DNA from: Octopus vulgaris
Lineage: Eukaryota
NCBI GenBank assembly: GCA_951406725.2
Contig: OX597831.1
Coordinates: forward strand, 35,464,001 to 35,528,000
Length of the DNA: 64,000 nucleotides
Direction of reading: 5' to 3'
The notes under the pieces were generated by a model. It was not told the origin of the DNA and did no database searches. It saw nothing but the letters and a program-made list of their open reading frames with translations. Positions 18,054 to 54,737 of the stretch are shown piece after piece. Made by a program: the position numbers and the translations under genes. Each line of letters opens with the position of its first letter. Positions within the stretch are counted from its first letter, which is position 1.

Positions 18054-19091
18054 CAGTAGTAGTAGTAGTAATAGTAGTTGCTGCTGTTGTTGTTGTTGTT
18101 GCAACTTAATTACATTAGAAAACACTTTTATTTAGCTGAAACTACATCAGACTCTCGAAATTGTATTTTCCGAACAGAAATTGAGTGATTAATAAAATTT
18201 GGACTGTGTTAATTTTGTTCTTGAACAAGGAAATTGCATCATTTACCAGCAAACAACAAGGATAAAATATGTAAAAAAAAAAAAAAATTTTAAAAAAACC
18301 CATGACAACAGTGAAAAACAAACAAGCAAAAAAGAAACACCACAAGAAAACAACAAACAAAAATGAAAAAGACAACAAAAACAAGGTGACGTCCACAACA
18401 ATAACATCAGCAATGCAACAAGATCAGTGATATCAGGAAAAATAATCTTCTGCTTAACAAACCAAATAATGTCAGTAATATAAATAATAGTGAGAACAAT
18501 AAAAAATAAGGTGTCAAAGAGAGAACCTCTAAGTGGTTGCACAGTGTACTAGAAATAACAGCTAAGTTTCCCTCAAATCATACCTTAGCATCTTTGATAC
18601 GGATTTGTTAGGTAATGCATACACAAACACACGAGGTAGTTTTGGTGAAGCATTGTGAGGTATAACTTTAAAGAATATAGTTGTATAAAGCCGGTACAAT
18701 GTGAAATGGTACAAAGTAAACTACAAAAAGAAAAAAAATAAACAGATCAAAGCTGCAGTTTTTTACTTTGTATTTCTATACTTCGGGTTGAAGGTCTCTT
18801 CTTCAAGACATTTGGGATAGTAGTTGGAAAAGGTCATTGCTTAGATATATGTATATATAAGTGACATTTTTTTCATGATTTTTGTTAGTTTTAAATGCAA
18901 TTAATGAGCTGATAATAAATAGAATGATGTTAAGAAAAATGAGAAAAAGAGAGAAGAAAAAGAAATACATAAGTATAAAAGATAAAAATTCTTATAATTT
19001 ATAACATCAATATAATATGTGTGAGTATGTGTATCTGTCTGTCTGCCTGTCTCTGTTTCTCTCTCTATACATATATATATATATATATATA

Positions 19092-19280
19092 GGGAAAGTT
19101 TACAAAAAAAACAAAAGACGAAGACAGGTGGTGTACAAAACAAACAGATGTATTAGTATAACGCTCAGGAACAGAAAATGTCTTTTACGTTTCGAGCCTA
19201 TGCTCTTCTACAGAAAGGTACACAGAAAAAACAAGTAGAGAAAAAAAATGTGTGTAGTGGCTAATGATCTATCATGGCGA
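19092..19280 (-). mobile_element. Penelope-like pseudo-LTR fragment with minimal hammerhead motif (19182-19217)
   Basis: Minus strand CUUU CUGUAGA A GAGC-auag-GCUC GAAA CG UA AAAG, (TA)n flanks. Homologous to 32017-32175. Confidence 0.65.
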
Positions 19281-19316
19281 TATATATGTATATATATATG
19301 TATATGTATATATATA

Positions 19317-19637
19317 GGAAATTTAGATATATACATTATGAGTCGAGACAAATATCGTCAGCTGACCGGTGTCTGCTACTCTAGGGCGACGAAGGACAAT
19401 CATCCTGAAACACGTGTCCCTAGATGCAGCCCGGGCGGCTGGGGGTATTTGTCTCCCCTTCGTAAATGTATATAAGGACACAGGAAAAATGTGTCAAAGC
19501 CATCAGGAGGCGTCGATGGGCTAAACAGCGGTGGTGAACACCCCTACTGTCACGTTCGTGTTAGATTGACAGTATACAACCATTCTATCGCCCCACCACC
19601 GTACATGTCTCTATGAGAGATTTAGAAATTTAGTATT

Positions 19638-19642
<5 letters not shown>
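19317..19642 (+). ncRNA. Structured hammerhead-containing element (retrozyme-like), copy 1
   Basis: UCUAGG GCGACGA AGGA-caauca-UCCU GAAA CACGUG UC CCUAGA at the tip of a long stem (19345-19455), followed by several hairpins. Sits in (TA)n. Confidence 0.65.
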
Positions 19643-19672
<30 letters not shown>

Positions 19673-19698
19673 TCGTACATGTCTCTATATATATATAT

Positions 19699-19914
19699 CC
19701 GAAATACTACGCTACATTGACAAAGGGCAAATACCCTGAAACACGTCTGTAGCTGTCTGACTGGCAGTGTGAAGCGGCTGACCTTCCTTGTTCGAAGGTT
19801 ATAATGGACACAGTTTGTGTGTCAAATAGCTATCTTAAGGCGATGGCCTCATGGAGCTAATTAGCGACAGCTTTTAGTCTTATATCTATAAGACTGCCAT
19901 ATTAATATGGCGAT

Positions 19915-19920
<6 letters not shown>
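19699..19920 (+). ncRNA. Structured hammerhead-containing element (retrozyme-like), copy 2
   Basis: GCUACA UUGACAA AGGG-caaaua-CCCU GAAA CACG UC UGUAGC (19711-19753), then the GGACACA/TGTGTC hairpin module. (TA)n flanks. Confidence 0.65.
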
Positions 19921-19983
<63 letters not shown>

Positions 19984-27034: not shown

Positions 27035-27384
27035 TCGGAAATCTGCAATGGCTCCATAACTACCATCTTGGCTACAACTTTGGAGCCTTAGTAATCCGTT
27101 ACAGCACTTACCTAGCATTGGGACCCCTTCGCATCGAAGACTGGTGATTGTCATGCACTGACGGCGGGTAAATACCCAGAAACCCCGGGTCGGTGCATAT
27201 CACGTCATGTCGACAATGGGAAGGATGGCTTCCCTTTGCAAATACTGATAGGGCACAAAAAGTGTGTCAATAGCCAGCTGGAGAAGATGTTCTCTTGGGG
27301 CTACAAGTTACAGTAGCATCCACCCTTAGTGGTTAGCCACATTTAAGTGGCAAATATACATCGCATATACCTCATTCAGAGATT

Positions 27385-27388
<4 letters not shown>
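27035..27388 (+). ncRNA. Structured hammerhead-containing element (retrozyme-like), copy 3
   Basis: AUGCA CUGACGG C GGGU-aaau-ACCC A GAAA CCCCGGG UC GGUGCAU (27153-27198), then the GGGCACA/TGTGTC hairpin module. Followed by (TA)n. Confidence 0.6.
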
Positions 27389-27447
<59 letters not shown>

Positions 27448-54298: not shown

Positions 54299-54737
54299 CA
54301 TTATTATTATGTTTGGCTTTTGCTTTGTATTTGTACAAGTTGACTCCAAGTCTCACCCAGAGACCTCAACAGGCAAGTTAGAAGTTCATGTTATGTTATG
54401 ACTAGGGTGCCATATTTTGGGTTTTGCACAAAGTATTGTTCAAGAGAATATCTGTGGAGACATAAGAATATTTGAAGTTTCTTTTAGAAGTAATTTGATT
54501 ATACGATGATAGTGTGATGTTCATATGACAGTAAAAGATGTTTGCTATTATGTACATTTAAAAGTATTTTGACACTGTAGTAAATATTGTTTGCCAACAC
54601 AACATGGCAGTCCAGGTCCAGGACGAATGTTGCTGTAATTTAGCCCCAAGAGACACTGTTTACAGATTTAGATGTTTTGGGGATTACATTGATAATATTT
54701 TTCTTAGGATATGAGCAGTTCCTAATTATTATTATTA

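What the first reader, a model, noticed from the sequence alone, without database searches (positions are those of the whole stretch)
19476..19522. Conserved GGACACA/UGUGUC-AA-AGC..GCUA module: an unassigned cis element
Apart from the hammerhead core, this is the only clearly sequence-conserved part of the three elements (19476-19495, 19806-19823, 27251-27268). The loops differ (GGAAAAA, GUUUG, AAAAG), and copy 3 has an A>G change that still pairs as G-U. Its roughly fixed spacing from the cleavage site suggests an RT-recognition, priming or circularisation signal, or an unknown ribozyme auxiliary domain (inference).
Basis: partly seen in the sequence, partly recalled or inferred. Interest (0 to 1): 0.7.

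Follow-up and report, generated by a model that had tools for sequence, protein, structure and literature searches.

The report
Conserved hairpin domain in ribozyme retroelements
The motif is real: it is the first two stems of a folded RNA domain shared by thousands of copies of a small, protein-less jumping element that carries a hammerhead ribozyme, and it likely serves as the handle by which a Penelope-type copying enzyme picks up that RNA.

Summary
The three copies are real. Genome-wide there are 4,061 exact matches against 37 for the reversed control, and 30 of 30 sampled matches are copies of one element lineage. That lineage is a set of 342-364-nt, ORF-less, hammerhead-bearing non-LTR retrozymes with a Penelope-type footprint: two fixed 3' ends, and one of each in 28 of 29 inverted insertions. 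The motif is stems P1 and P2 of a larger covarying RNA fold (18 of 33 pairs compensatory, 0/500 shuffles). The 'AA' is not conserved. The neighbouring invariant YTCCCYT and a downstream ATCAGTG match this genome's snRNA promoters; P1-P2 does not. A second retrozyme lineage keeps the promoter motifs and ribozyme but lacks P1-P2, which argues against a general cleavage, circularisation or promoter role. Best reading: a lineage-specific recruitment handle for a Penelope RT, upstream of the start sites (about 50%). No sampled autonomous element carries it, and binding is untested. The scan already noted these retrozymes, their promoter and their two-armed insertions on other DNA; no note I was shown describes this domain.

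The parts
19320..19643 (+). Copy 1: solo 5'-truncated monomer of the 364-nt family A retrozyme, ending at the second (tail) end, in (TA)n; lacks the PSE-like motif; 8-nt deletion in P2b
19381..19423 (+). Type I hammerhead of copy 1 (stem I CTAGGG/CCCTAG, core GCGACGA where the family has CCGAYGA, predicted cleavage after 19418)
19453..19460 (+). YTCCCYT motif of copy 1: likely DNA-level distal promoter element, also 3' arm of a possible hairpin P0
19477..19495 (+).
19498..19523 (+). P2 (AGCC/GGCU outer stem; inner stem damaged by deletion), copy 1
19526..19601 (+). P3 long-range helix (19526-19536 with 19594-19601) enclosing P5 (19548-19572) and the first fixed end (about 19585)
19586..19643 (+). 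Tail between first and second fixed ends, with tail hairpin P6 (about 19609-19619)
19706..19920 (+). Copy 2: 5'-truncated family D monomer ending at the first fixed end; hammerhead 19711-19753 with U3-A8 core TTGACAA; P1 19807-19823; P2 19828-19859; P5 19895-19912
27115..27389 (+). Copy 3: 5'-truncated family C monomer with internal deletion in the tail; hammerhead 27153-27198 (core CTGACGG); YTCCCYT 27229-27237; P1 27252-27268; P2 27272-27303; P5 27336-27351; P6 27371-27381
54578..54656 (-).
   Evidence: (24.4 bits, E 1.5e-4)
19089..19280 (-). Separate repeat end with a minimal hammerhead (motif 19187-19213), no module, inserted in the same (TA)n cluster; not part of the retrozyme

Best explanation
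The motif is stems P1 and P2 of a conserved, covarying RNA fold in one large lineage of ORF-less hammerhead retrozymes, and it likely acts as the recruitment handle for the Penelope-type reverse transcriptase-endonuclease that copies these RNAs in trans. Steps. (1) Shown: 342-364-nt units with a type I hammerhead, in partial tandems and inverted pairs at (TA)n. (2) Shown by sequence, function inferred: each unit carries an ATCAGTG-like proximal element and a YTCCCYT distal element at snRNA-promoter spacing, so a tandem would be transcribed from about 25-31 nt before the next hammerhead core. (3) Inferred from known retrozymes: hammerhead cleavage releases a monomer that would circularise. (4) Shown computationally: the stretch between the two promoter motifs folds into P1, P2, P3 (P4, P5) and P6, with compensatory changes between families. 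(5) Shown: insertions start at two fixed sites about 110-130 and 155-180 nt 3' of P1, one on each arm. (6) Inferred: P3/P5 and P6 set the two start sites, while P1-P2, upstream of both, is bound by the enzyme or an adaptor and makes the RNA a preferred template; the active Neptune-type element is the likeliest enzyme donor.
For: Structure under selection: on a sequence-only alignment of 19 divergent copies, 89.9% of cells pair, 18 of 33 pairs change on both sides, 0/500 shuffles reach it and slid controls give 33-45%; P1 3 of 6 pairs, P2a 1 of 4, P2b 6 of 6, P3 5 of 7. A search blind to P1 shows family-level P1 variants GGATAC/GTATC, GGGCAC/GTGCC and GGACACC/GGTGTC. P1 and the inner P2 stem form in 13 of 13 complete units folded as circles without constraints, the outer P2 stem in 12 of 13. 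Penelope footprint: of 155 copies, 67 end at site 1, 61 at site 2, 21 read through, 6 elsewhere; 28 of 29 classifiable inverted insertions have one end of each kind, p 5.6e-8. In the one Penelope enzyme reconstituted in vitro, RT starts at two internal sites that define the tail, the minimal RNA runs from +20 to +172 with starts at +111-118, and hammerhead cleavage is not needed (PMC11167929); P1-P2 lies at about the position of that required upstream segment. Not a shared promoter element: P1 pattern in 2 of 66 snRNA upstream regions (both look like pseudogene flanks) and TRGRGCTA in 0 of 66, whereas YTCCCYT is in 15 of 15 U1 regions at -245 to -252. Lineage-specific: a second hammerhead retrozyme lineage keeps both promoter motifs but has no P1-P2 and mostly one 3' end. 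An element with intact 781-aa RT plus GIY-YIG ORFs, (TA)n flanks and the same two-end pattern (30-nt tail) is present.
Against: No autonomous element sampled carries P1-P2: the model found only separate retrozyme insertions in 73 loci with GIY-YIG ORFs or other hammerheads (4 hits) and in 20 Naiad loci (1 strong hit); the Neptune-type 3' ends are short and AT-rich. The start sites track P5/P3 and P6, not P1-P2, so the link to the enzyme is positional only. RNAalifold on 9 full units predicted P1, P3 and P5 but not P2, pairing its 3' arm with YTCCC instead, with no two-sided change. G-U versus A-C counts do not show which strand folds (34 vs 25, p 0.30). P1 has few independent changes, and related sequences can beat the shuffle control. 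The control lineage is one old, decayed family. The tail here (45-55 nt) is longer than the 30-40 nt described.
Confidence: 0.5

Rival explanations
1. P1-P2 binds a host RNA-binding protein that stabilises, ligates, exports or silences the retrozyme circle, or brings it to where Penelope protein is made (as the Alu domain does with SRP9/14; analogy recalled).
For: Absent from all autonomous elements sampled, as expected for a need only a non-autonomous RNA has. Strong sequence bias inside covarying stems. PMC7229834 Discussion proposes that the hammerhead in metazoan circles is blocked in vivo by something other than self-pairing.
Against: The second retrozyme lineage should face the same host steps but lacks the module. 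No Rfam family matches.
Confidence: 0.25
2. The motif is a DNA-level enhancer (inverted-repeat factor site) of the snRNA-type promoter; it lies at about -248 to -184 from the inferred start, right after the distal element.
For: Position inside the distal zone. snRNA genes here carry different extra sites in that zone, so absence from them is not decisive. Strand test inconclusive.
Against: Spacer between the arms varies from 5 to 11 nt and both arms change together; P1 pattern in 2 of 66 and TRGRGCTA in 0 of 66 snRNA upstream regions; P2b and P3 covary over long range.
Confidence: 0.1
3. P1-P2 is an auxiliary domain of the hammerhead that docks on it to promote or regulate cleavage or ligation.
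For: Fixed 53-59-nt spacing; P1 sits at the base of the rod that carries the ribozyme.
Against: P1 loops vary and show no complementarity to hammerhead loop II that holds across families (read by eye). Hammerheads of other lineages in this genome lack it. The spacing is accounted for by rod length and promoter geometry.
Confidence: 0.07
4. P1-P2 has no partner; it is kept only to tie up this sequence so that the rod and the start-site domain fold correctly, or it reflects shared ancestry.
For: All families are homologous end to end; any stable local hairpin would insulate.
Against: An insulating stem needs pairing only, yet P1 is the most sequence-conserved region (0.73 vs 0.52) and T-R-G-R-G-C-T-A is near-invariant.
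Confidence: 0.08

Closest known systems
Metazoan non-LTR retrozymes (Cervera and de la Pena 2020, PMC7229834; Li, Clavereau and Pollet 2026, bioRxiv 10.64898/2026.07.22.740005)
   Same: Short ORF-less tandem units within the 170-400-nt range with a canonical-type type I hammerhead; proposed mobilisation by Penelope-like elements.
   Different: In the passages read neither paper describes a conserved RNA domain downstream of the ribozyme, a promoter, or fixed RT start sites. Li et al. report pLTR homology in Xenopus; here no homology to sampled autonomous 3' ends was found. The NAR supplement could not be read.
Template RNA of PAc (Poseidon clade PLE of Anolis; Frangieh et al. 2024, PMC11167929)
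   Same: Hammerhead, then a required upstream segment, then two internal RT start sites bounding a tail; AT-rich targets.
   Different: PAc's segment lies in its own ORF and acts in cis; its structure was not compared across families. Tail 30-40 nt there, 45-55 nt here. Sequence or structural homology with P1-P2 was not tested.
Insertion units of EN+ Penelope-like elements (Craig et al. 2021, PMC8557442; Arkhipova et al. 2013, PMC3846280)
   Same: Partial tandems, adjacent inverted 5'-truncated copy, tail at one end only, (TA)n bias; terminal repeats proposed as cis signals for mobilisation in trans.
   Different: No RT or endonuclease in the unit; the canonical hammerhead and the P1-P6 fold are not found in the autonomous elements sampled here.
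snRNA-type promoters (PSE plus distal element) of this genome's U1, U2, U4, U5
   Same: ATCAGTG-like motif and YTCCCYT at matching spacing in the retrozyme unit.
   Different: The spacer between the two motifs is AT-rich in snRNA genes but holds the covarying P1-P6 fold in the retrozyme.

Membership tests
Metazoan non-LTR retrozyme | Type I hammerhead in each unit | tested here: met
   Core, stems I-III in all 9 full units. Rfam Hammerhead_1 32.2 bits, E 8.9e-5, just under the gathering score 34, in 1 of 7 loci and HH9 at E 3.6e-5 in another; no hammerhead row among the 150 of 197 listed for the window.
Metazoan non-LTR retrozyme | Short tandem units of about 170-400 nt | tested here: met
   Units of 342-364 nt, up to 7 copies at one locus.
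Metazoan non-LTR retrozyme | No protein-coding capacity | tested here: met
   No ORF of 120 aa or more over the three window copies; no tblastn match of three PLE proteins inside units.
Metazoan non-LTR retrozyme | Self-cleavage and circular RNA in vivo | not testable with these tools
   No run on record as RNA; only contigs.
Penelope-type insertion | Inverted 5'-truncated copy with tail at one end | tested here: met
   28 of 29 classifiable inverted insertions, 31 found.
Penelope-type insertion | (TA)n or AT-rich target | tested here: met
   3' flanks listed are mostly (TA)n or AT-rich (read by eye; family G less often (TA)n).
Autonomous EN+ Penelope-like element | RT plus GIY-YIG ORF inside the element | tested here: not met
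Derivative of an autonomous pLTR | Homology of the unit to the 3' end of an autonomous element in the same genome | tested here: not met
   None in 73 plus 20 loci; the sample is small (150 of 6,136 GIY-YIG candidates scored).
snRNA-type promoter (whole unit) | PSE about 57-60 nt before the start and distal element near -250 | tested here: met
   9 of 9 units carry a PSE-like motif (pattern widened for variants) 80-87 nt before the hammerhead core and YTCCC at -246 to -268 from the inferred start; U1 15/15, U2 12/15, U5 11/12, U4 5 of the 6 top loci carry the PSE motif.
snRNA-type promoter (whole unit) | Mapped transcription start | not testable with these tools
   No raw RNA reads.
snRNA promoter element (P1-P2 itself) | Motif present upstream of snRNA genes | tested here: not met
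   2 of 66 (pseudogene-like flanks) and 0 of 66.
Any Rfam family (P1-P2) | Match to a covariance model | tested here: not met
   No row over the module in 7 loci at E up to 1.
Hammerhead auxiliary domain | Conserved or covarying contact with hammerhead loops | tested here: inconclusive
   By eye none holds across families; non-canonical contacts cannot be excluded.

The most novel reading that the evidence does not exclude
P1-P2 is a dedicated RT-recruiting RNA domain, separate from the template start sites, that a non-coding circle evolved without copying it from any autonomous element, and that loads a dimeric, telomerase-related Penelope RT onto two start sites of one RNA. It would be the first defined trans-recognition structure for a Penelope enzyme and a portable tag for making any RNA a Penelope template.
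Probability: 0.3. Interest if true: 0.75.

Novelty: new variant of a known kind. Interest (0 to 1): 0.5.

Why it matters
How Penelope-like enzymes choose their template, and how retrozymes hijack them, is open: PMC11167929 only brackets the binding region and PMC7229834 only names PLEs as candidate helpers. This lineage gives about ten divergent families that act as a natural mutagenesis series. It separates DNA promoter motifs from an RNA fold and places that fold against two exact start sites, so binding and templating tests can be designed base pair by base pair, with a candidate enzyme that has intact ORFs in the same genome. The element class itself is known, and the three window copies are decayed, promoter-less monomers.

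Tried and rejected
Microsatellite background: rejected. Other organisms: a hammerhead-plus-P1 pattern gave 69 metagenome and 4 viral stretches; by eye none has a hammerhead fold with P2. These collections hold little animal DNA, so this says nothing on distribution. Expression: no RNA holder listed; contigs of 4 runs laid on a unit are uninformative, with one 364-nt back-joint in a run of unknown kind. Naiad as partner: its 3' end has a GACACC..GGTGTC helix and the motif occurs 323 times within one mismatch, but the insert is 23 nt, the 20 copies read are diverged and mostly share one end, the model gives no hit there, and PMC8557442 calls cephalopod Naiads long inactive: rejected as resemblance. 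Module motifs in the PMC8557442 supplement: only the first places of each term were shown and none was a module; not exhaustive. Pairing of the P2 3' arm with YTCCC: no two-sided change, broken in family D; rejected in favour of P2a. Loop-loop pairing of P1 with hammerhead loop II fits copy 2's subfamily only; rejected. Strand test by G-U vs A-C: inconclusive. A first MAFFT alignment of 30 short segments misaligned the P1 3' arm and was not used for counts. From the 22 representatives, 4 with a rearranged or deleted P1 or a false tail were dropped and 1 family G copy added; this favours pairing in P1. The 485-544-nt retrozymes named in earlier notes were not located, so they were not tested for the module.

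Full report
Observation. The three motifs are at the stated coordinates with the stated loops and are the only matches in the window; 200 Markov-1 resamples of the window gave 1 match in all. In the 2.8-Gb genome G000 the pattern GGRCACA-N3-9-TGTGTCAA occurs 4,061 times against 37 for the reversed pattern, and 6,669 against 173 when relaxed and tied to an upstream GAAAC. All 30 loci fetched (the first 30 of 4,061, all on contig C1) match a model of the element at the motif. 17 of 30 have a hammerhead core 53-58 nt upstream, 2 have a mutated core and 11 lose homology before the ribozyme. In the window the spacing is 57, 58 and 59 nt. The motif is therefore not microsatellite noise.

What the elements are. 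The copies belong to about ten divergent families that are homologous end to end, with tandem units of 342-364 nt, no ORF and a type I hammerhead whose core varies as C3-G8, U3-A8 or U3-G8 between families (numbering recalled). A pattern that ignores P1 and uses only flanking motifs gave 14,863 matches against 102 (5 of the first 100 rows are double counts), and 29 of 30 fetched loci are this element by eye. Rfam gives only hammerhead rows over the units, below the gathering scores. These are non-LTR retrozymes in the sense of PMC7229834 (passages and Discussion read; supplement unreadable) and bioRxiv 10.64898/2026.07.22.740005 (parts 1-3 of 5 read; supplements not seen).

Insertion footprint. 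Of 155 distinct copies, 67 end 60-84 nt after the P2 3' arm (site 1), 61 end 110-134 nt after it (site 2), 21 run on into the next unit and 6 end elsewhere. Of 31 inverted insertions, 28 have one end of each kind, 1 has two site-2 ends and 2 could not be classed (p 5.6e-8). This is the inverted copy with one-sided tail described for Penelope-like elements (PMC8557442 passages; PMC3846280 passages) and explained in vitro by two internal RT start sites (PMC11167929, parts 1-2 of 4 read). PMC4209133 (parts 1-2 of 4) covers the minimal hammerheads of such elements and the U3-A8 core variant.

Structure. 13 complete units from 7 subfamilies, folded as circles without constraints, give P1 and the inner P2 stem in all 13 and the outer P2 stem in 12; the wider layout is P1, P2, P3 enclosing P5 and site 1, tail hairpin, a further hairpin, and a long rod tipped by the hammerhead. 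On a sequence-only alignment of 19 divergent copies (4 damaged representatives dropped, 1 added) 89.9% of cells pair, 18 of 33 pairs change on both sides and no shuffle of 500 reaches this; slid controls pair at 33-45%. P1 has 3 of 6 such pairs, P2a 1 of 4, P2b 6 of 6, P3 5 of 7, P5 3 of 6, P6 0 of 4. The helices were chosen from this same alignment, and relatedness can inflate the shuffle test. P1 variants seen at family level in the P1-blind list support the stem independently. Against: RNAalifold on 9 full units did not predict P2, and G-U vs A-C counts do not fix the folding strand. The AA linker and the P1 loop are free. P1 is still the most sequence-conserved region, 0.73 against 0.52 for the unit.

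DNA versus RNA signals. Earlier scan notes suggested an snRNA-type promoter, so I tested it. U1 (15 of 15), U2 (12 of 15), U5 (11 of 12) and U4 (5 of the 6 best loci) carry ATCAGT(G/C) at -57 to -61, and all 9 full retrozyme units carry such a motif 80-87 nt before the hammerhead core. The invariant YTCCCYT just 5' of P1 lies at -246 to -268 from the inferred start, and the same motif stands at -245 to -252 in 15 of 15 U1 regions, at -262 in 2 of 12 U6 loci, and in single U2, U4 and U5 loci. The names PSE and distal element are recalled. P1 and the P2 arm are not shared: 2 and 0 of 66 upstream regions. So the module fills the spacer between two promoter motifs and behaves as RNA structure, and its fixed distance from the cleavage site likely follows from promoter spacing and rod length.

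Control lineage. A second hammerhead repeat (1,428 candidates, 40 scored, 75-85% identical to the query) has units of about 320-340 nt, the same YTCCC motif about 30 nt after the cleavage site and an ATCAG(C/T)G-like motif about 72-75 nt before the core, ends mostly at one site, and has no P1-P2 by eye or by model (best score away from neighbouring main-lineage copies E 0.18). The module is thus not a general need of hammerhead retrozymes in this genome. It is one old family, so the control is modest.

Partner. GIY-YIG searches found many intact 781-aa ORFs with RT and endonuclease and a C-x4-C-x2-C linker (sequence printed) of the kind described for Neptune elements. These elements sit in (TA)n and end either at one site or 30 nt further on, like the retrozymes, but their ends are AT-rich, carry a minimal hammerhead and do not match the model. 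Naiad ends show a superficial GACACC..GGTGTC helix and were rejected. No autonomous element with P1-P2 was found; the sample is small.

Mechanism and odds. Transcription from the internal promoter, cleavage, circularisation and copying from two start sites on both target strands is the likely cycle; the footprint and motifs are shown, the biochemistry is inferred. Start sites lie next to P5/P3 and P6, so P1-P2 is not the priming site. It lies about 65-130 nt upstream of site 1, where PAc needs RNA (to +20, starts at +111-118), it is conserved in sequence as well as pairing, and it is confined to the lineage with the two-end footprint. I put recruitment of the Penelope enzyme at 0.5, a host protein site at 0.25, DNA enhancer 0.1, folding insulator or ancestry 0.08 and ribozyme helper 0.07.

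Novelty. The element class and the insertion pattern are in print, and this scan noted the retrozymes, promoter and two-armed insertions elsewhere in this genome. Eight literature searches (listings only unless named above) showed no description of a conserved RNA domain downstream of a retrozyme hammerhead; subscription journals, Repbase and the unread supplements could hold one. Verdict: a real, selected, unassigned RNA sub-domain of a known kind of element; new variant of a known kind; interest 0.5.

Noticed in passing
window 19061-19981: Three different insertions share one (TA)n cluster: a minus-strand repeat end with a minimal hammerhead (19089-19280), retrozyme copy 1 and copy 2; 19670-19700 repeats a piece of copy 1's tail.
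   Followed up: partly
L068:744-4006, L069, L078, L079 (G000 C16, C2, C5): An abundant Neptune-type Penelope element has a second long open frame (up to 479 aa) upstream of its 781-aa RT plus GIY-YIG ORF, with no convincing Pfam match, and a 3' region with repeated ATTGGTCA and TGATGACGTC blocks before a TATA-like motif. Canonical EN+ elements are described with one ORF.
   Followed up: partly
L390:240-560 and L391-L420: Second, older hammerhead retrozyme lineage (units about 320-340 nt) with the same promoter-like motifs, no P1-P2 and mostly a single 3' end; old single-ended Naiads could be its helper (speculation).
   Followed up: partly
L304-L323, about positions 1500-1570 of each motif strand: Naiad 3' ends hold a GACACC/GGTGTC stem whose 23-nt loop could pair with a downstream GGGCAG (possible pseudoknot), flanked by GAAAC and CTGATGA: perhaps a permuted or non-canonical ribozyme ('HHR_half_core' in PMC8557442).
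   Followed up: no
L324-L389 upstream regions: snRNA promoters of this genome: ATCAGTG-type element at -57 to -61 for U1, U2, U4, U5; a different element plus TATA for U6; gene-specific distal sites (TGACGTCA at U2, TCAAGGTGAAGGTC at U5).
   Followed up: partly
L254-L283 (family G): The most frequent family in the P1-blind sample has a predicted AUA cleavage triplet and a U-A stem III, and its 3' flanks are less often (TA)n.
   Followed up: no
window-wide: Very dense microsatellites (191 tandem-repeat rows) and no convincing long ORF; all listed Rfam rows are sub-threshold hits on simple repeats.
   Followed up: no
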